A stretch of DNA of 64,000 nt from positions 106,085 through 170,084 of the forward strand of contig CBDIQC010000001.1 of the NCBI GenBank assembly GCA_965283875.1, in the 5' to 3' direction. Below, piece after piece: positions 49,428 through 59,370 of this stretch; the stretch's first letter is position 1, and every line of letters starts with the position of its first letter. The notes beneath the pieces were generated by a model, which saw nothing but the letters and a program-made list of their open reading frames with translations, searched no databases and was not told the origin of the DNA. A program made the translations under genes and the position numbers. The DNA is from an uncultured Elusimicrobia bacterium (GTDB lineage Bacteria > Elusimicrobiota > Elusimicrobia > UBA1565 > UBA9628).

Positions 49428-50300
49428 GTGACGACGACTTCCTTCGTCCTGCTGCTCGCCGCCGCCGCGTCCGCCCAGCCTCTGGCCCAGGACTTCGAGT
49501 CCGCCCGCGCCGGCCTGTCGCGCCCCGCGACGATGCGCTCCGTGGTGGACCCCAAGGCCAGCGGCGCCTGGTTCCGCAAGGTGGAAAGCGTCGAAGGCCT
49601 CGGCCACGGGCTGCGCGCCGAAGGCGTCCTGCCCTCCTTCCGCGCCGACCCCGGCCGCGACTTCGTCGCGCCGGGCGACTGGCGCAGCGGCCCGCTCGAC
49701 CGCGCCAGCGTCTATATCGGCCTGGGCTCGCGCGTGTCCGAGGTGGACGCGGGCCTGGGCTGGAGCCCCGTGCTCGGCGCCGACGGCCGCCGCACGGGCG
49801 CCTACGCCTACCGCATCTTCTGGCGCGCCGCCCCGCACGGCTGGGGCCAGCCGGACAAAGGCACCCCTGACGACCTGTATTTCGAGCCCGGCGAGCGTTT
49901 CGTCATGACCATCACCGCGCGCGCCGACGGCACCGCGCGCCTCGACATCCGCCGCCCGCGCGACGGGCGCTCCTTCACCAAGGTGTTCCCGGTCGCGGGC
50001 CTGGACCTGCGCGAGCTCGCCTTCAAACGCATCCACTCCATCGACCAGTTCCGCGTGGTGGACGGCAAACGCGACGGCAACGAAGGCCACCCGGCCGCGC
50101 CCACGACGGCGCGCCTGGAGGGGGGGCGCTGGGACGCGGTGAGCGTGCTCACCGCCGCGGGCGTTCGCCCGCTGGCCGGCGCCGACGCGATCGAGGTGCG
50201 CAGCCGCGACACCGCCGCGTCATACCGCGCCCTGTTCGCGGCCGGCGCGCCCTCGGCCGAAGGCGGCGAGCCGATGCTCGTCGTCCCGCCCGCGCCCTAG
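49428..50300 (+). CDS. secreted hypothetical protein
   Basis: 290 aa with a GTG start, signal TTTSFVLLLAAAASAQP and coding-like composition. No family recognised. Confidence 0.5.
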   Translation: MTTTSFVLLLAAAASAQPLAQDFESARAGLSRPATMRSVVDPKASGAWFRKVESVEGLGHGLRAEGVLPSFRADPGRDFVAPGDWRSGPLDRASVYIGLGSRVSEVDAGLGWSPVLGADGRRTGAYAYRIFWRAAPHGWGQPDKGTPDDLYFEPGERFVMTITARADGTARLDIRRPRDGRSFTKVFPVAGLDLRELAFKRIHSIDQFRVVDGKRDGNEGHPAAPTTARLEGGRWDAVSVLTAAGVRPLAGADAIEVRSRDTAASYRALFAAGAPSAEGGEPMLVVPPAP

Positions 50301-50352: not shown

Positions 50353-51060
50353 ATGCCTTATTCGAAGCGTGACGCCCCGAACTGCGATTGGTGCTCCTTC
50401 CGCAAGAACTGCTTTTACGAGCTGCTCGGCACCAAGGAAGCCAAGAAGGCCTGGCGCGACATGCGCCTGGCCAACCCCTTCAAGCGCGGCGAGGTCGTTT
50501 TCCACGAGGGCGCGGCCCCGCAGGGCGTCTATATCGTCTGCACGGGCAAGGTGAAGGTTTACAAATCCAGCCGCACCGGCCAGCAGCTGACCACGCGCGT
50601 GGAATCCCCGGGCGACCTGCTCGGGCACGTGACCTTCCTCGCCAACGAGGGCCCCTACACCGGCACGGGCGAGGCGCTCGAGCCCAGCGTCGTGTCCATG
50701 ATCGAGAGCCGCTCCTTCCAGGATTTCGTCAACCGCTTCCCGCACGCGGGCTTCGCGCTGATGCGCGAGCTGGCGCGCGACGTGCGCCGCGGCGAGAACA
50801 AGGCGCGTGACATAGCCTTCAAGCCCGCCCGCGGCCGCCTGGCCGACACCCTCATCCGCATGATGGTCCCCAAGAAGCCCTACCCCGTGGTCGCCGGCAT
50901 CAAGCGCCGCGACCTCGCCGAGATGGCGGGCCTGACCATCGAGACGACGGTGCGCCTCCTCAAGGATTTCGAGGAGCGCGAGGTCCTCAAGAAGAAGGAG
51001 AAGGACCTCGTCATCCTGTCGGAAGAGCGCCTGCGCGCGCTCGCCGGCTCCGCCGCCTAA
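50353..51060 (+). CDS. Crp/Fnr-family regulator with an FNR-type N-terminal Cys motif
   Basis: 235 aa with C11-x2-C14-x5-C20 (the same spacing as E. coli FNR C20/C23/C29) plus C63 in the beta-roll. cNMP-like barrel. Recognition helix IETTVRLL retains the E..R of FNR ETISR. Confidence 0.85.
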   Translation: MPYSKRDAPNCDWCSFRKNCFYELLGTKEAKKAWRDMRLANPFKRGEVVFHEGAAPQGVYIVCTGKVKVYKSSRTGQQLTTRVESPGDLLGHVTFLANEGPYTGTGEALEPSVVSMIESRSFQDFVNRFPHAGFALMRELARDVRRGENKARDIAFKPARGRLADTLIRMMVPKKPYPVVAGIKRRDLAEMAGLTIETTVRLLKDFEEREVLKKKEKDLVILSEERLRALAGSAA

Positions 51061-51123
51061 GCGGCGCCCCTGGGCCTTCGGGCCTATCCTCGACGGACGC
51101 CGGGCCCACGCGGCCTGGGACCT

Positions 51124-51151
51124 TTGACCTACATCAATTGAGGTCCATCAA
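51124..51151. promoter_or_regulatory. two abutting FNR/CRP-type boxes
   Basis: TTGAC-ctac-ATCAA (51124-51137) and TTGAG-gtcc-ATCAA (51138-51151), compared with the consensus TTGAT-N4-ATCAA. They lie 100-130 nt upstream of the repeat-peptide ATG. Confidence 0.55.
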
Positions 51152-51252
51152 GCCTAAGGCTTGACCGGACTCATTCTGATGAAAACGACAACACGCTACA
51201 CTGTAGCTGTCGCAATCAACCGATTTAGACGAAACGACACGGAGAAACGAAA

Positions 51253-51506
51253 ATGCTCAACCTGATCCTGACGCTCGCGATGACCTCGACCCAGCCCGCC
51301 GTGACCACCGCCCAGTTCAAGCCCTGCGTGTGGCCCAACGTCTGCAAGACCGTGACCGCCCCGGTCCAGACCGCCCAGTTCCAGCCCTGCGTGTGGCCCC
51401 GATATCCGCGCCGGCTGCCGCCCCGCTCGTCACGATCGAAGCCGCCCCCGCGGTCGCGCAGTTCCAGCCCTGCGTCTGGCCCCGCACCTGCAAGAACCAG
51501 GCCTAA
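51253..51506 (+). CDS. small repeat peptide: leader + 3 x AQF(K/Q)PCVWP cores (needs +1 nt in the C run 51397-51400)
   Basis: GGAG lies 8 nt upstream. MLNLILTLAMTSTQPAVTT-AQFKPCVWPNVCK..-AQFQPCVWP..-AQFQPCVWPRTCKNQA. The corrected frame stops at TAA 51504-51506 and a strong terminator follows. Confidence 0.6.
51310..51482 (+). repeat. three 27-nt direct repeats (51310, 51373, 51456)
   Basis: gcccagttcaagccctgcgtgtggccc / gcccagttccagccctgcgtgtggccc / gcgcagttccagccctgcgtctggccc. The differences are synonymous or K/Q. Confidence 0.9.
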
Positions 51507-51536
51507 GCCTTAGACACCCGGACCAGAAGCCGTGTA

Positions 51537-51570
51537 AACGGCCCCGACCCCTCGGGGCCGTTCTTATTTA
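51537..51570 (+). terminator. rho-independent terminator
   Basis: AACGGCCCCGA-cccc-TCGGGGCCGTT (perfect 11-bp stem) followed by cttattta. Confidence 0.7.
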
Positions 51571-51584
51571 TGGGGGCATCAACC

Positions 51585-51630
51585 AAAGGGACAGGCACTC
51601 TCGTTAATTAACGAAAGTGCCCGTCCCTTT
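51585..51630. terminator. long imperfect hairpin after upp (possible terminator for the minus-strand operon)
   Basis: Outer 15-bp arms AAAGGGACAGGCACT / AGTGCCCGTCCCTTT with one mismatch. They enclose the perfect palindrome TCGTTAATTAACGA. Confidence 0.4.
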
Positions 51631-51636
51631 CGTTAA

Positions 51637-52260
51637 TTAGGTGTTGAAGAGGCGGTCGCCGGCGTCGCCGAGGCCGGGGAGGATGTAGCCGTGGCTGTTG
51701 AGGATGGGGTCCACGGAGGCGGTGAAGATGGGGACGTCCGGGTGGTCCTTGTGGACGCGATCGACGCCTTTTTTGGCGGCCAGCAAGGTCAGCAGGACGA
51801 TTTGTTTGGCGCCGTCGGTCTTGAGGATGTGGATGGATTCCGAGGCCGAGCCGCCGGTGGCGAGCATGGGGTCGCAGAGCACGACGAAGTGGTCCTTGAG
51901 CTTCTTGGGCAGCCGCACGTAGTAACGCACCGGGTTCAAGGTCTGCTCGTCGCGGTACAGGCCGATGTGGCCGATGGCGGCCTTGGGCGCGAGCTGGAGC
52001 AGGCCGGGCGTCATGCCCAGGCCGGCGCGCAAGACGGCGACGAAGGCCAGCGGCTGGTCGAGCACGGTGGCGGGCGCGCTCTTCAACGGGGTCTGCACGG
52101 TCGCCTTGCGGGTGCGCACGCCTTTGAGCACCTCGCAGCCCACGAGCATGGCGACCTCCGACATCAGGCGCCGGAAATCCTCGGGCGCGGTGTTTTTGTC
52201 GCGCAGCGCGGCGAGTTTGTCTTGGACGAGCGGGTGGTCGCTGACATGTAATTTGGGCAT
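51637..52260 (-). CDS. upp: uracil phosphoribosyltransferase
   Basis: 207 aa with the PRPP motif VLCDPMLATGGS and the C-terminal GLGDAGDRLFNT. Confidence 0.95.
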   Translation of the reverse strand: MPKLHVSDHPLVQDKLAALRDKNTAPEDFRRLMSEVAMLVGCEVLKGVRTRKATVQTPLKSAPATVLDQPLAFVAVLRAGLGMTPGLLQLAPKAAIGHIGLYRDEQTLNPVRYYVRLPKKLKDHFVVLCDPMLATGGSASESIHILKTDGAKQIVLLTLLAAKKGVDRVHKDHPDVPIFTASVDPILNSHGYILPGLGDAGDRLFNT

Positions 52261-56351: not shown

Positions 56352-57905
56352 CTAAGCTAACGCGCGCAACGAAGCCTGCGCGGCTTTGACGCCGCGGTAA
56401 TGCGCTTCCTCGAACAAGGACAGGCCGGACATGTCCGAATGCGCGAACGAGACGGGGCCGACGGGCGAAAGCGCCGCGCGGCGCGCGGCGCCGAACAGGA
56501 AGCCGGGGCGGGGGAGGATCATCCCGTGGCCCCACAGCCAGGCGTCCAGGCGCGTGGCCCTTTCGCGGATGTCCGGGTGGGCGCGCGCCAAATCGTCGAG
56601 GCACAGGTCGCGGCATTTCGCCCAATCCCAGCCGAAGGCCTCCTGGCGGCGAGCCGACGGGCCGCCGGTGAGCGGGCGGTAATACGTCCACACCGTGCGC
56701 CGCCGATCGAGGCTGATGTCCTGGTGGCGAGCGTCCACGTAACCGAGCCCCTGGCCGTTGTAGAGGACGTTGTCCCAGCTCGGCGGCGCGCCGTGGCCGT
56801 CGGCCGGGCGCTCGAGCGTGACGTTGCAGGTCAGCCACGGCGCGTAGTCGAAGCCTTCGGCCGACAGGCCCGGCACCAGACGCGCGGCGACGTAGCGCGG
56901 GGCCGCGACGATGACGCGTTTGGCGCGCAGGCGGCGGGCGTCGCCGCCCGAGGCGTCCATCGAGTCCACGACCGCGCCGTCCCCGTCGGGCGCGACGCGA
57001 TAAACGAGGCGCCCGCCGCGCACGCGTTCGCCGGCGCGCTCGAGCAGCTTCTTGATGAGCCAGCCGTTGCCCTCGGGCCAGGTCAACACGCGGTCGTGCT
57101 CGCCCTCGGCGCGGGCGGCGAAGTAATGCAGGCCCGCCCAGGCCGACACCTCCTCGGAAGTCCCGCCGTAGTCGTCGCGCATGGCGTAGTCCACGTACCA
57201 TGATAAACGGGAGGAGGTGAAGCCCTCCTGCGCCAGCCACGCCTTCATCGAGAGGCGGTCGAGGGCGGCCAGCTCGGTGGAGCTGCGCTCCATCGGGATG
57301 GCGAACAGCGGACGGCCGTCGCGCCCGCGGCCGTCGCGATACGTCCGGATGCGCGCGTCCCAGCGCTCCTTCTGGCGCCGATCGTCGGGCGACATCCCGT
57401 CCGACGGATACAAGCCGTCCTGCCAGCGTCCGTGGATGAACAGCCGTTCCTCCGGCGCGTGGCACAGGTAACGTTCGTCGTAACGGTCCTCGCCGCTGAG
57501 CACGCCCAGCTCGCGCAGGAGCGTCTTGAGCTCGGTCGCGTGCGGCCCGGGCACCGGCAGGTAATGCGCGCCCCACGGGTAGGCCGACACCTCGTTTTCG
57601 CCCCAGGCCGCGTTGCCGCCGGCGCGGTCCTCGAGCTCGAGCAGCTCGAAATCGTCGAAGCCCGCGCGGCGCAGCTCCCAGGCCGCCGACAGCCCGGCCG
57701 CGCCGCCGCCGACGATGACGAGGGGGACCTTGTCCTCGCGCGCCGGCGCGGGGAACTTGCCCGCGCGAAGCTTGTGGCCGCGCTCGCGCGAGGGGCCCAG
57801 CAAGGAGCCGTATAAAGGCGGGCGGCGGACGCAGGCGCCCAGCGCGACGGCCGCGAGGCCCGCGCCGAGGAACTCGCGACGGCTTATTGGACGACCTTCT
57901 CCCAT
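56352..57905 (-). CDS. FAD-dependent amine-oxidase-like oxidoreductase with a Tat-type signal
   Basis: 517 aa with MGEGRPISRREFLGAGLAAVALGAC (twin-Arg) and dinucleotide fold VIVGGGAAGLSAAWEL..ELEDRAGGN. Confidence 0.75.
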   Translation of the reverse strand: MGEGRPISRREFLGAGLAAVALGACVRRPPLYGSLLGPSRERGHKLRAGKFPAPAREDKVPLVIVGGGAAGLSAAWELRRAGFDDFELLELEDRAGGNAAWGENEVSAYPWGAHYLPVPGPHATELKTLLRELGVLSGEDRYDERYLCHAPEERLFIHGRWQDGLYPSDGMSPDDRRQKERWDARIRTYRDGRGRDGRPLFAIPMERSSTELAALDRLSMKAWLAQEGFTSSRLSWYVDYAMRDDYGGTSEEVSAWAGLHYFAARAEGEHDRVLTWPEGNGWLIKKLLERAGERVRGGRLVYRVAPDGDGAVVDSMDASGGDARRLRAKRVIVAAPRYVAARLVPGLSAEGFDYAPWLTCNVTLERPADGHGAPPSWDNVLYNGQGLGYVDARHQDISLDRRRTVWTYYRPLTGGPSARRQEAFGWDWAKCRDLCLDDLARAHPDIRERATRLDAWLWGHGMILPRPGFLFGAARRAALSPVGPVSFAHSDMSGLSLFEEAHYRGVKAAQASLRALA

Positions 57906-59370
57906 TCGGCCTCGTAGTAGCGCACGAGGGCTTGCGTGTCGAGCCGGTTGACGTCGGCGTCCACGCGCGCCATGTCGGCGGGGAATTCGAAGAGCGACGG
58001 CAAGGTGGCCGTGGTCAGGTAGCGCAGCCCTTCGGGCAGGCGCAGCGGCGGCCGGTACTCTCCGGCGCCGCCGATGACGAAGCCCCACTCGCCGAAGGAG
58101 GGAACGTAGGTGTGGTACGGCGCCGTCTTCCAGCCCGCGTCGGCCATGGTTTTCTCGATGCACCAGAACGAGCGGCGCGCGAACAGCGGCGACGTCGCCT
58201 GCACCGAGATGAGCCCGCCGCGCGCCATGCGCCGCTTGAGCAGCCGGTAGAACGGCGCGGAGAACAGCTTGCCGACGGCGTAGTTGGAGGGGTCGGGGAA
58301 ATCGACGATGGCCGTATCGAAGCCGCCCAGCGAGGTCTCCAGCCACTTGAAGGCGTCGGCGTTGACCACGCTCACGCGCGGGTCGCGCAAGGGCCGCCGT
58401 TGAGGCGCGAGAGCTCGGGTGCTCGAGAGCTACGGCATGCAGGCGGTCACCGCAACGTCGACCGCACGGACGCGTCAGGTCGCGCGGCACCTGCCAGGCC
58501 AGCCGTCGCCGCCGGCACCAGCACGCGCGCAGGCCTCCTTGGTGCGCCTGCGGCCATCACCGGGTGCACCAGCGCCTCGTGGTAGCGGTACTCGTCCATC
58601 GTCGAGAACTGCAGGTGCCCGTTGAGGAACAGCCGCCAGTCGTCCTTCCAGCGCGTGAGCACGATGCGCTGGTACGACGTGGTCTTGGCGAAGATGACCT
58701 CGTCGGCGAACAACGAGCCTTCGGCGTGTTCGGCGATGGCCTTGGAGCCGGCCAGGCCGGCGACGAGCAGGACGGCCGCCGCCGCGCACATGGCCTTGAG
58801 CCGCGCCGCGTCGGGAATCTCGTCGCGCAGCAGGCGCAGGGCCAGCGCGGCCACGCCGACGTTGAGCAGGCCGAAGACGAACGCGGTGTTGAGCAGGCCC
58901 AGGCGCGGCACGAGCACGAGGGGGAACAGGATGGACGCCCCCAACGCGCCCAGGTAGTCCACGGTGAGCACCTGCGACACCAGGTCCTTGAAGTCGAGCT
59001 TGCCCTTGAGCAGCCGCATGAGCAGCGGGATCTCCATGCCCACCAACGTGCCCACCAGCAGCACGAGCAGGTAGAGCACCAGCCGGAAGCCCGCCGCGTA
59101 GGTGAACGTCAGGAACAGCAGCGCCGCCGACCAGCCGCCGACGAGCCCGACGAGGATCTCGATCTGCACGAACCGCGCGGCCAGGCCGCGGCCCACGTAT
59201 TTCGACAGCCAGGACCCCACGCCCATCGCGAACAGGTGCGCCCCGATGACGGTCGAGAACTGCAGGACCGTGTCGCCGAGCAGGTAGCTCGCCAGCGCCC
59301 CCGCCACGAGCTCGTAAACGAGCCCGCAGGTGGCGACGACGAACAACGAGGCCAGCAGCGCGTGCGTCAC
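57884..59370 (-). pseudogene. membrane-anchored spermidine-synthase-like aminopropyltransferase, at least 4 frame breaks (58390-58560) as assembled
   Basis: The N-terminal ~7-TM block (..VGLVGGWSAALLFLTF..) is followed by ..YQRIVLTR..LFLNGHLQFSTMDEYRYHEALVHP... The GGGDG region is scrambled. The C-terminal ..VVNADAFKWLE..VDFPDPSN..SVQATSP.. is intact. Confidence 0.75.

What the first reader, a model, noticed from the sequence alone, without database searches (positions are those of the whole stretch)
51253..51506. Orphan gene for a multi-core Cys/Trp peptide: three AQF(K/Q)PCVWP repeats behind one short leader
A short gene with GGAG 8 nt before ATG 51253 lies between the FNR-like regulator and upp. 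It encodes a 19-aa hydrophobic leader (MLNLILTLAMTSTQPAVTT) followed by three copies of AQF(K/Q)PCVWP. Two copies continue xxCK (CVWPNVCK, CVWPRTCK), and Ala/Pro/Thr/Val spacers separate the copies. The 27-nt DNA repeats differ only at synonymous positions (gcc/gcg, gtg/gtc) or K/Q, so the peptide is conserved rather than the DNA. Copy 3 is in frame only if the C4 run at 51397-51400 is really C5, the same type of error seen all over this window. The corrected ORF ends at TAA 51504-51506, and a perfect 11-bp-stem terminator follows. Identical cores in tandem behind one leader is the layout of multi-core RiPP or pheromone precursors. An invariant C-V-W-P suggests a cross-link or a small disulfide loop. 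No maturase, protease or exporter is adjacent, and I do not recognise the motif from any described family.
Basis: partly seen in the sequence, partly recalled or inferred. Interest (0 to 1): 0.8.

Follow-up and report, generated by a model that had tools for sequence, protein, structure and literature searches.

The report
Oxygen-sensor-controlled exported Cys/Trp loop peptide
This is a real gene, damaged in this genome, from an undescribed family of small, probably secreted peptides built from 12-residue two-cysteine loops, found in Elusimicrobiota and some of their phages and always placed behind binding sites for an FNR-type (oxygen-sensor-like) regulator.

Summary
ATG 51253, the GGAG, the 19-residue N-terminal segment, three AQF(K/Q)PCVWP copies with synonymous differences, TAA 51504-06 and the 11-bp terminator are all present.

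The proposed repair (C4 to C5) is not what relatives show. A 15-nt patch (51402-51416) replaces 19 nt. This shifts the frame and removes the second Cys of copy 2.

The gene is not an orphan. At least 226 clusters (50% identity) of 50-121 aa stand-alone proteins exist, and every named source is Elusimicrobiota. They carry 1-5 units of A-Q-F-x-P-C-V-W-P-N-x-C (C-x5-C). Codon third positions vary most, as expected for a coding sequence.

Nearly every gene is monocistronic and has a conserved promoter with three FNR/CRP-type boxes. The promoter-proximal box starts 36 nt upstream of the -10. An FNR-like regulator with four invariant Cys usually lies directly upstream.

No maturase, protease or exporter is linked in the ~120 loci examined.

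Remote and phage-borne members replace the odd N-terminus with canonical Sec signal peptides ending A-x-A|QF. The 'leader' is therefore most likely an export signal, and the working unit a single loop.

A classical RiPP cluster is not supported. Function is unknown.

The parts
50353..51060 (+). Crp/FNR-family regulator, 235 aa, with four invariant Cys (C11, C14, C20, C63). It is the likely activator of the peptide gene.
   Evidence: Pfam finds cNMP_binding plus HTH_Crp_2. The best NCBIfam match is Fnr PRK11161 at 66 bits, below the 228-bit cut-off. PDB phmmer aligns residues 8-234 to A. fischeri FNR 5cvr. The four Cys are invariant in 34 orthologues. An orthologue lies directly upstream of peptide genes in 34 of 58 loci.
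51124..51137 (+). Box 1, TTGACCTACATCAA. An FNR/CRP-type inverted repeat, 9 of 10 matches to TTGAT-N4-ATCAA. Predicted centre about -78.5.
   Evidence: This box and Box 2 are the only sites scoring 9/10 or better in the whole 64-kb window.
51138..51151 (+). Box 2, TTGAGGTCCATCAA, 9 of 10 matches, abutting Box 1. Predicted centre about -64.5.
   Evidence: A tandem pair spaced 13-14 bp centre to centre recurs in front of most family members.
51161..51174 (+). Box 3, TTGACCGGACTCAT, a weaker box. It starts 36 nt before the -10, so its predicted centre is -41.5, the geometry of class II activation.
   Evidence: The same spacing occurs in about 55 of 75 genes. No sigma-70 -35/-10 pair is found in this region.
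51197..51202 (+). Predicted -10 hexamer TACACT. The predicted transcription start is near 51209, giving a 5' UTR of about 44 nt.
   Evidence: The element is conserved as TATACT, TACACT, TATCCT or TACAAT at a fixed distance from Box 3. The transcription start is inferred, not measured.
51241..51244 (+). Shine-Dalgarno GGAG, 8 nt before the ATG.
   Evidence: It is conserved in L011 and L001.
51253..51309 (+). N-terminal segment MLNLILTLAMTSTQPAVTT. It is a probable atypical signal peptide with no positive charge.
   Evidence: The family consensus is M-[ILM]-[NETQDS]-L-I-L-x-L-x-L. Only 1 of 74 members has K or R in the first 12 residues. The segment before the first QF is 20-22 residues long, and position -1 is Ala in 116 of 133. 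AF2 predicts a helix at residues 3-9. Remote members carry a canonical signal peptide at this position.
51310..51345 (+). Repeat 1, AQFKPCVWPNVC. An intact C-x5-C unit.
51373..51399 (+). Repeat 2, AQFQPCVWP. It is truncated and has lost its second Cys.
51402..51416 (+). Lesion. A 15-nt divergent patch replaces 19 nt of the closest orthologues (net -4 nt). It causes the frameshift and the loss of the R-T-C-K codons.
   Evidence: DNA alignment A2.
51456..51506 (+). Repeat 3, AQFQPCVWPRTC, followed by KNQA and stop TAA. It is out of frame (+2) with the ATG as sequenced.
51537..51572 (+). Intrinsic terminator: an 11-bp perfect stem, a 4-nt loop and a T-rich tail.
   Evidence: It is conserved in L011 and L001. 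The same hairpin follows each paralogue in other loci.

Best explanation
The locus is a monocistronic gene for a member of an undescribed, Elusimicrobiota-restricted family of small exported peptides. The peptides are built from 1-5 copies of a 12-residue unit, (A)-Q-F-x-P-C-V-W-P-N-x-C, joined by Ala/Pro/Thr/Val linkers.

Proposed mechanism, step by step:
1. The adjacent FNR-like regulator probably carries an O2-labile Fe-S cluster on its conserved Cys. It binds three TTGAY-N4-RTCAA boxes predicted at -41.5, -64.5 and -78.5 and activates transcription, most likely when oxygen is low. The boxes, their spacing and the regulator's Cys are shown. Activation, the signal sensed and the transcription start are inferred.
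2. The pre-peptide is exported through Sec. The N-terminal ~20 residues act as a signal peptide cut at A|QF. This is supported by remote and phage-borne members, which carry canonical signal peptides ending A-x-A|QF. For the main family it is inferred.
3. Outside the cytoplasm each C-x5-C unit acts on its own, as a small disulfide-closed (or, under anoxia, dithiol) Trp-Pro loop. Single-unit members, the variable repeat number and an even Cys count support this. The chemistry and the target are unknown. I rank metal or redox buffering first, and a signalling or inhibitory peptide second.
4. In this particular genome the gene carries a lesion at 51402-51416. As sequenced, only unit 1 is left intact.
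For: The family is real and coding.
- There are 46 clusters at 90% identity and 226 clusters at 50% identity. The 150 best are listed and are 50-121 aa, so no large multidomain protein appears among them.
- Every labelled source is Elusimicrobiota.
- Across 174 distinct DNA units, summed entropy at codon positions 1/2/3 is 6.9/6.6/10.9 bits, with synonymous codons used for Ala, Pro, Val and Asn.

Regulation.
- 73 of 75 genome-derived genes have at least one FNR-type box (8/10 or better) upstream.
- 68 of the 81 sites scoring 9/10 or better in 815 kb fall in the 15 kb of 200-nt upstream regions. That is 4.5 per kb against 0.016 per kb.
- In the window, the only two such sites are 51124 and 51138.
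- The layout is fixed: Box1-Box2, about 9 nt, Box3, about 22 nt, then the -10.
- No sigma-70 -35 is present.
- The regulator is directly upstream in 34 of 58 loci and has 4 invariant Cys. Three of them align with FNR C20, C23 and C29.
- Each paralogue has its own promoter and its own terminator.

Export.
- Canonical signal peptides with A-x-A|QF occur in L122/L123/L133, L124, L126/L127, L130, L134 and L136.
- The linkers are rich in Pro, Ala and Thr.
- 73 of 74 members have an even number of Cys.
- The N-terminal segment is 20-22 residues with a strongly hydrophobic 9-mer (median Kyte-Doolittle 2.3), and Ala is at -1 in 116 of 133.

No linked maturase.
- Neighbours are housekeeping genes: TPR, upp, nucleoside phosphorylases, NUDIX, APH, OPT, PCMT, Ddl, MlaD.
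- No ORF of 200 aa or more carries CxxxCx[FYWH]C within 6 kb of a peptide gene, across 123 loci and 891 kb.
Against: - The main-family N-terminus lacks the positive n-region of a Sec signal: 1 of 74 have K or R, and 22 of 74 have D or E, in the first 12 residues.
- Position -3 before the putative cut is Gln in 49 of 133. This is poor for signal peptidase I.
- No signal-peptide predictor was available.
- The transcription start is not measured, so the -41.5 geometry depends on a predicted -10.
- The regulator scores below NCBIfam's Fnr cut-off (66 against 228 bits). Its fourth Cys is not at the FNR C122 position, so O2 sensing is an inference.
- Much of the synteny comes from related genomes and could be inherited rather than functional. 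The boxes, however, are also present at loci without the regulator.
- AF2 gives no confident fold (pLDDT 52).
- Nothing here shows what the peptide does.
Confidence: 0.6

Rival explanations
1. It is a multi-core RiPP precursor. The N-terminal segment is a leader recognised by a maturase encoded elsewhere in the genome. That enzyme installs a Cys-Trp, Cys-Cys or Trp-Asn cross-link in every AQFxPCVWPNxC core, and the cores are then excised.
For: - Tandem, near-identical units have conserved flanks and variable spacers.
- Repeat number varies from 1 to 5.
- Cys, Trp and Pro are nearly invariant (the unit filter required both Cys and the second Pro).
- The N-terminal motif is unusual and highly conserved, and does not look like a standard signal peptide.
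- W-P-N fits the aromatic-X-Asn pattern used by three-residue cyclophane (triceptide) maturases, and W-x3-C is the spacing of fungal tryptathionine bridges. Both points come from my own knowledge and were not tested.
- Some RiPP families, such as bufferins, do carry Sec signal peptides (PMC11626156).
Against: - No radical-SAM, YcaO, MNIO, Lan, ATP-grasp (other than a genuine Ddl), P450, peptidase or ABC-exporter gene is linked in any of about 120 loci spanning several unrelated contexts and phage genomes.
- Phage copies are lone genes with ordinary signal peptides.
- The 'leader' is exchangeable for a canonical signal peptide.
- The last unit has position-specific conserved variants (AQFTTCVYPRKCGKKA). 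This argues for an ordered small protein rather than interchangeable cores.
- Every gene has its own FNR-type promoter and none sits in an operon.
Confidence: 0.17
2. It is a cytoplasmic or membrane-tethered small metal- or redox-binding protein. The N-terminal hydrophobic helix is not cleaved, and the reduced Cys pairs bind metal or an Fe-S cluster inside the cell under anoxia.
For: - The main-family N-terminus is uncharged or acidic, with only about 10 hydrophobic residues.
- The position -3 residue before the putative cut is poor for signal peptidase.
- FNR-type control fits anaerobic metal or redox physiology.
- One remote member (L131) has a full transmembrane segment before a single unit.
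Against: - Canonical cleavable signal peptides sit directly before QF in at least six remote or phage members.
- Pro/Ala/Thr linkers and a variable number of independent units are atypical for a cytoplasmic metal-cluster protein.
- Single-unit versions have only two Cys.
Confidence: 0.12
3. In this genome the gene is a pseudogene: the lesion at 51402-51416 is a real mutation. The alternative is a local assembly or consensus error in an intact gene. This concerns the state of this copy only, not the nature of the family.
For: For a real lesion:
- The difference from L011 and L001 is a 15-for-19-nt replacement, not a homopolymer slip.
- Most neighbouring genes are intact.

For an error:
- Copy 3, the stop codon and the terminator remain nearly identical to the orthologues although out of frame.
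- A second 1-nt deletion splits a conserved gene 7 kb away.
- The patch contains GATATC. I recall this as a common methylation motif that can disturb long-read base-calling; that is my own knowledge and was not tested.
Against: Neither reading can be excluded from one assembly. Either way, no single-base correction restores the second Cys of copy 2.
Confidence: 0.5
4. The functional product is an FNR-activated small RNA, comparable to E. coli FnrS, and the ORF is incidental or secondary.
For: The unit is short (about 300 nt) and monocistronic, with an FNR-type class II promoter and a strong intrinsic terminator. This is the layout of FnrS (my own knowledge).
Against: - Third-codon-position variation and synonymous substitutions show coding selection.
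- The reading frame and the start codon are conserved in about 130 distinct genes despite indels in the spacers.
- Either an SD or a leaderless ATG is conserved.
- There is no Rfam match.
Confidence: 0.03

Closest known systems
Bufferins (MNIO-modified, Sec-signal-bearing Cys peptides that buffer copper; PMC11626156, PMC12452194)
   Same: Both are small, ribosomally made, Cys-containing peptides with an N-terminal export signal. Both act outside the cytoplasm and are plausible metal binders.
   Different: Bufferin precursors belong to DUF2282 or BUF_6/12Cys and are always encoded with an MNIO enzyme and its partner. Here there is no Pfam hit, no MNIO nearby, a different motif (C-x5-C with Trp-Pro), tandem repeats, and FNR-type rather than copper-responsive control.
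Multi-core RiPP or pheromone precursors (cyanobactin PatE, graspetide and triceptide multi-core precursors, yeast alpha-factor)
   Same: One N-terminal segment is followed by several near-identical short units with conserved flanks and variable spacers, and copy number varies between homologues.
   Different: No processing or modifying enzyme is linked in about 120 loci. The N-terminal segment is interchangeable with an ordinary signal peptide. The terminal unit has its own conserved variant. Single-unit members exist.
Class II FNR-dependent promoters and FnrS-type monocistronic FNR targets of E. coli
   Same: There is a TTGAT-N4-ATCAA-type site predicted at -41.5 in place of a -35, additional upstream sites, a short monocistronic unit, and a regulator with the C-x2-C-x5-C triad.
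   Different: Three closely packed sites are present, two of them abutting with centres 13-14 bp apart. The fourth Cys of the regulator is at a different position (C63, not C122). The product is a peptide, not an sRNA. In 29 of 75 genes the ATG lies 6 nt after the -10, which implies leaderless mRNA.
Contryphans (Conus peptides, C-x5-C loop containing Pro and Trp)
   Same: Both have a seven-residue disulfide loop with five intervening residues that include Trp and Pro, and both are secreted after signal-peptide cleavage (my own knowledge).
   Different: The origins are unrelated, and contryphans carry a D-Trp modification. No homology was tested or expected. The comparison is only a structural analogy for what one unit may look like.
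Phage-encoded secreted peptides such as arbitrium AimP
   Same: Phage genomes carry a tiny gene that encodes a signal peptide plus a short mature peptide.
   Different: No AimR- or AimX-like partner was seen. The mature part is a 12-13-aa Cys loop shared with host chromosomal genes and driven by a host-type FNR box. It looks like a moron picked up from the host rather than a dedicated communication module.

Membership tests
Multi-core RiPP precursor | A modifying enzyme (radical SAM/SPASM, YcaO, MNIO, Lan, ATP-grasp, P450 or similar) is genetically associated with at least some precursors. | tested here: not met
   Gene neighbourhoods were examined in 58 genome loci and 67 metagenome loci. Recurrent neighbours are the Crp/FNR regulator, TPR, upp, nucleoside phosphorylases, NUDIX, APH, OPT, PCMT, Ddl and MlaD. 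No CxxxCx[FYWH]C ORF lies within 6 kb in 123 loci. Unlinked enzymes could not be searched.
Multi-core RiPP precursor | Repeated core peptides with conserved flanking recognition sequences. | tested here: met
   The family carries 1-5 units of AQFxPCVWPNxC with variable A/P/T/V spacers.
Multi-core RiPP precursor | A dedicated leader peptide is required for recognition by the maturase. | tested here: inconclusive
   The N-terminal motif M-x-x-L-I-L-x-L is conserved. In remote and phage members it is replaced by unrelated canonical Sec signal peptides.
Multi-core RiPP precursor | Post-translational modification of the core. | not testable with these tools
   This needs mass spectrometry.
Sec-exported pre-peptide | A hydrophobic h-region within a 15-30-residue N-terminal segment. 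| tested here: met
   The segment before the first QF is 20-22 residues, and the median best 9-mer Kyte-Doolittle score is 2.3. AF2 predicts a helix at residues 3-9.
Sec-exported pre-peptide | A positively charged n-region. | tested here: not met
   In the main family, which includes the window gene, 1 of 74 have K or R and 22 of 74 have D or E in the first 12 residues. The feature is present in remote and phage members (MK..., MTKK..., MTKGK...).
Sec-exported pre-peptide | Small residues at -3 and -1 (A-x-A) before the mature N-terminus. | tested here: inconclusive
   Remote and phage members have ARA|QF, AHA|QF, ASA|QF, AAA|QF and AVA|QF. In the main family, -1 is Ala in 116 of 133, but -3 is Gln in 49, Thr in 24 and Ala in 22. 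No SignalP-type predictor was available.
Class II FNR/CRP-activated promoter | A TTGAT-N4-ATCAA-type inverted repeat upstream of the gene. | tested here: met
   73 of 75 genes have such a site, with about 280-fold enrichment over the rest of the loci. In the window the boxes are at 51124, 51138 and 51161.
Class II FNR/CRP-activated promoter | A site centred near -41.5 relative to the transcription start, with no good -35. | tested here: inconclusive
   Box 3 starts 36 nt before the conserved -10 in about 55 of 75 genes, and no sigma-70 -35/-10 pair is found. The transcription start is predicted, not measured.
FNR proper (O2-sensing [4Fe-4S] regulator) | Cluster ligands equivalent to E. coli C20, C23, C29 and C122. 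| tested here: inconclusive
   C11, C14 and C20 align with C20, C23 and C29. The C122 position is Ser. A different invariant Cys (C63) exists.
FNR proper (O2-sensing [4Fe-4S] regulator) | A score above the curated family threshold. | tested here: not met
   NCBIfam Fnr PRK11161 is the best match but scores 66.5 bits against a cut-off of 228. The protein is a Crp/Fnr-family member by Pfam.
Bufferins | A DUF2282 or BUF_6/12Cys precursor domain with adjacent MNIO (DUF692) and DUF2063 genes. | tested here: not met
   The peptide has no Pfam or NCBIfam hit, and no such neighbours were found.
Known RNA family (e.g. FnrS) | A match to an Rfam covariance model. | tested here: not met
   Across 50900-51800 only sub-threshold chance matches appear, all to the hairpins at 51510-51653.

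The most novel reading that the evidence does not exclude
A new class of secreted, oxygen-sensor-controlled loop peptides, shared between Elusimicrobiota and their phages. The mature product would be a 12-13-residue (pyro)Gln-Phe-x-Pro-Cys-Val-Trp-Pro-Asn-x-Cys ring. It would act as an extracellular signal, a metallophore or a redox shuttle under anoxia, possibly with an enzyme-made Cys-Trp or Trp-Asn cross-link from an unlinked maturase. Phages would carry single-unit copies with host-type FNR promoters to manipulate or protect their lysogens.
Probability: 0.2. Interest if true: 0.8.

Novelty: new variant of a known kind. Interest (0 to 1): 0.6.

Why it matters
Elusimicrobiota are a largely uncultivated phylum, and almost nothing is known about their regulation or their secreted products. 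This locus yields three testable things:
- A phylum-wide peptide family with a very simple, strictly conserved 12-residue two-Cys/Trp unit that matches no described family.
- A clean, conserved three-site FNR-type promoter that defines a likely core target of an FNR-like sensor in this phylum, including many apparently leaderless transcripts.
- Evidence that phages have captured single units together with the promoter, which implies that one loop is enough for function and gives a fitness benefit.

If the peptides prove to be metal- or redox-active, or to be signals, they would be a new small-molecule-like layer of anaerobic physiology. They are short enough to synthesise chemically.

Tried and rejected
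1. Family and structure searches on the peptide all returned nothing. This covers Pfam, NCBIfam, PHROGs and PDB sequence search, Rfam on the region, and full-text literature searches for the motif and for Elusimicrobia RiPPs.

2. AlphaFold2 with a 28-sequence alignment gave pLDDT 52 and only an N-terminal helix, so I did not attempt a fold search.

3. I tested the claim of 'frameshifts all over the window' with a GC3 phase scan and overlapping-ORF lists. The apparent frame changes were separate genes with long spurious upstream ORFs, such as the pst operon and MFS/AcrB/OEP/TetR. Only one further true frameshift was found, by tblastn against L001 proteins.

4. The source record could not be identified. 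The window's own 86-aa ORF (P0007) is held from an NCBI contig of 3.1 Mb, but it returned no encoding contig and no accession.

5. I first read TTGACC at 51161 as a -35. I rejected this because it lies 30 nt from the -10, and it fits a -41.5 activator site instead.

6. I considered a type IV pilin-like N-terminus, a lipoprotein signal, a double-glycine leader and a Tat signal. I rejected all four from the sequence: there is no G|F, no lipobox Cys, no GG and no RR.

7. I considered the ATP-grasp neighbour in L030/L036 as a graspetide ligase. I rejected it because it is a full-length D-Ala-D-Ala ligase.

8. The OPT transporter, PCMT and response-regulator neighbours in one clade are noted, but they are too few (3-4 related loci) to interpret.
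Full report
**The observation**

The sequence at 51253-51506 is as described.
- ATG is at 51253, with GGAG 8 nt upstream.
- The N-terminal segment is MLNLILTLAMTSTQPAVTT.
- AQFKPCVWPNVC and AQFQPCVWP are in frame 0.
- A third copy, AQFQPCVWPRTCKNQA*, is in frame +2 and ends at TAA 51504-06.
- The three 27-nt copies differ only by two synonymous changes and one K/Q change.
- A perfect 11-bp-stem terminator follows.

As sequenced, the ORF runs to 51513 and encodes 86 aa with an out-of-frame Arg/Pro/Ser-rich tail.

**The frameshift is not a C4/C5 slip**

I aligned the window with the two closest orthologous loci, L011 (peptide 86% identical) and L001.
- The window carries 15 nt (51402-51416, ATATCCGCGCCGGCT) where both relatives have 19 nt encoding (R)TCKTNE or a close variant.
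- The net change is -4 nt.
- The codons for the second Cys of unit 2 are gone in every frame.

Adding one C restores the frame but gives a unit 2 without its partner Cys. All three-repeat homologues aligned keep that Cys, and 73 of 74 distinct genome-scan proteins have an even Cys count.

I cannot decide whether the patch is a real mutation or a local consensus error.
- One other 1-nt deletion splits a spermine-synthase-like gene at about 58391.
- Long genes such as AcrB and all the immediate neighbours are intact.

**A large, coding, phylum-restricted family**

Size and distribution:
- A word-indexed search found 46 clusters.
- A profile search of 1.84 billion representatives found 226 clusters with E <= 1e-3. 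The 150 best are listed and are 50-121 aa, so no large multidomain protein appears among them.
- A scan of species-representative genomes returned 53 loci. Nearly all are labelled Elusimicrobia or Elusimicrobiota; two come from one MAG labelled only 'bacterium', and one is labelled Candidatus Endomicrobium trichonymphae.
- Genomes carry one to three tandem paralogues, and some have a second locus.

The conserved unit is A-Q-F-x-P-C-V-W-P-N-x-C.
- I selected units with a filter that required both Cys and the second Pro.
- Within that set, Trp is present in 162 of 174 distinct units and Asn in 144 of 174.
- Third codon positions carry most of the variation (10.9 against 6.9 and 6.6 bits), and synonymous codons are used freely. 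Selection therefore acts on the peptide.

There is no match in Pfam, NCBIfam, PHROGs, PDB or the literature. AlphaFold2 predicts only an N-terminal helix.

**Context: no maturase, but a conserved regulator**

In 34 of 58 non-redundant loci a 235-aa Crp/FNR-family regulator lies directly upstream. A TPR protein precedes it, and upp and two nucleoside phosphorylases follow.

Other clades place the peptide gene among NUDIX, APH, Mur ligase, OPT transporter, PCMT, Ddl or MlaD genes.

Nothing resembling a RiPP enzyme, a peptidase or an ABC exporter recurs.
- No ORF of 200 aa or more within 6 kb of any peptide gene carries the radical-SAM CxxxCx[FYWH]C motif, across 123 loci and 891 kb.
- The window itself has none within about 10 kb.

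**A conserved three-box FNR-type promoter**

Upstream of 73 of 75 genes there is at least one TTGAY-N4-RTCAA box. This includes loci that lack the adjacent regulator. The usual arrangement is an abutting pair with centres 13-14 bp apart.

Sites scoring 9/10 or better are about 280-fold denser in the 200 nt upstream of peptide genes than elsewhere: 68 of 81 sites fall in 15 of 815 kb. In the 64-kb window the only two such sites are 51124 and 51138.

Printing the upstream regions and measuring spacings shows a fixed layout:
- Box 1 and Box 2.
- About 9 nt.
- Box 3 (TTGAC-N5-TCAT).
- About 22 nt.
- A -10 element (TATACT, TACACT, TATCCT or TACAAT).

Box 3 begins 36 nt before the -10. That places its centre at -41.5, with Boxes 2 and 1 near -64.5 and -78.5. 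No -35 is present. From established knowledge of E. coli FNR and CRP, this is class II activation geometry.

The distance from the -10 to the start codon varies between genes.
- In 29 of 75 genes the ATG follows the -10 by 6 nt, which implies leaderless mRNA.
- The window gene instead has a UTR of about 44 nt with GGAG.

Each paralogue has its own promoter and terminator.

**The regulator**

Four Cys are invariant in 34 orthologues.
- The C122 position is Ser, and the fourth invariant Cys is C63.

The best NCBIfam match is Fnr, but far below its cut-off. PDB phmmer aligns residues 8-234 with A. fischeri FNR. I therefore call it FNR-like. Oxygen sensing is an inference.

**The 'leader' looks like an export signal**

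The main-family N-terminus (M-[ILM]-[NETQDS]-L-I-L-x-L-x-L) has almost never a positive charge. This is why it does not look like a Sec signal.

The metagenome and viral scans recovered remote members in which the unit directly follows a textbook signal peptide ending A-x-A:
- MKLILALMLALLAFSASRAHA|QFRPCVWPYTCG
- MKILTLILTVTILAILLFGIPARA|QFQPCVWPNICAQ
- MTKGKLLFFVVVAVAAVALNALFSAEASA|QFQPCVYPRTCSK
- MKNTAIVVLLLLAWAALRPAPAAA|QFKPCVWPNTC...
- MTKKIVFAVLFVAAICTAAYIKHARA|QFQPCVWPNTCSDKVVTTFEPCVWPNTCSDKCS

Several of these sit in phage genomes.
- Terminase and portal genes are present on three of the contigs, and a head-protease gene on one.
- Four contigs are IMG/VR viral genomes.
- At least three phage copies keep an FNR-type box 36-37 nt before a -10 and an ATG 6 nt after it.

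Three inferences follow.
- The family is exported.
- A|QF is the processing point.
- One 12-13-residue C-x5-C loop is a sufficient functional unit.

For the main family the support is partial. The segment before QF is 20-22 residues, strongly hydrophobic, with Ala at -1 in 116 of 133. However, Gln is at -3 in 49 of 133. Export there is likely but unproven.

**Interpretation**

The best-supported reading is a gene under FNR-type control, probably induced by anoxia, for an exported peptide made of independent Cys-x5-Cys Trp-Pro loops.
- Shown: the family, its coding nature, the boxes and their geometry relative to a conserved -10, the regulator's Cys, the absence of linked maturases, and the canonical signal peptides and phage copies.
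- Inferred: activation by the neighbouring regulator under low oxygen, Sec export and cleavage at A|QF in the main family, disulfide or dithiol chemistry, and any biological role.

I rank extracytoplasmic metal or redox buffering first, and a signalling or inhibitory peptide second. Neither was tested.

The multi-core RiPP idea survives only if the maturase is unlinked in every lineage (about 0.17). An sRNA reading is contradicted by the codon-level evidence (about 0.03).

**Verdict**

The family appears undescribed. I file it as a new variant of a known kind, namely small exported Cys-loop peptides and FNR-regulon members, rather than as categorically new, because no new mechanism has been demonstrated.

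Noticed in passing
L133/L135 (IMGVR_UViG_3300009285_003361), L134/L137 (IMGVR_UViG_3300032163_000055), L136 (IMGVR_UViG_3300001798_000009), L132/L118 (IMGVR_UViG_3300032053_000204), L130, L127: Phage genomes carry one- to three-unit versions of the peptide, most with canonical Sec signal peptides. Terminase and portal genes are present on three of these contigs and a head-protease gene on one. At least three copies keep a host-type FNR box plus a leaderless ATG. They look like morons captured together with their promoter.
   Followed up: partly
Related loci, e.g. L002 9210 and 9638, L016 10001, L020 10001 (29 of 75 genes): In the 'MINLIL' paralogues the ATG lies 6 nt after the conserved -10 hexamer, with no Shine-Dalgarno. 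This implies leaderless mRNAs in Elusimicrobiota. Gene callers sometimes chose spurious upstream starts for these genes (e.g. P0014, P0042).
   Followed up: partly
window 51578-51637: A near-perfect palindrome with 30-nt arms (87% complementary, no spacer) lies between the peptide terminator and the upp stop codon. A different long hairpin occupies the same place in L011. It may be the upp terminator or a repeat element. Only chance-level Rfam miRNA hits were found.
   Followed up: no
window about 58391 (gene 57887-59370, minus strand): A 1-nt deletion relative to L001 (GGCGGC-CC against GGCGGCGCC) splits a 498-aa spermine-synthase-like gene into two frames. This shows that the assembly, or the genome, carries at least one other frameshift.
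   Followed up: yes
L001 10397-10924: In the closest MAG, a 175-aa protein with a canonical signal peptide and three LICGREPQLxxC(K/R)(K/R)GQQ repeats (C-x7-C) is inserted between the peptide gene and upp. It is absent from the window and has no Pfam assignment beyond a faint DUF5330 hit.
   Followed up: no
L040, L041, L042, L053, L061 (a second synteny type): In another Elusimicrobiota clade the peptide gene sits beside an OPT oligopeptide transporter, a NUDIX hydrolase, an APH-family kinase and a protein-L-isoaspartate O-methyltransferase with an N-terminal extension. There are too few independent loci to say whether OPT or PCMT relate to the Asn-containing peptide.
   Followed up: partly
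window 49428-50300: A conserved 290-aa protein lies between the TPR gene and the regulator. It has no Pfam or NCBIfam match and an uncharged signal-peptide-like N-terminus (MTTTSFVLLLAAAASAQPLAQDF...). It is present in 10 of 58 loci. Its N-terminus shows that uncharged export signals may be normal in this organism.
   Followed up: no
L001 5584-7221, L005 1-7258: A large serine recombinase, a BrnT/CopG toxin-antitoxin pair and conjugation genes (TraC/TrbI) lie just upstream of the TPR-regulator-peptide block in two MAGs. This suggests an integration hotspot next to this locus.
   Followed up: no
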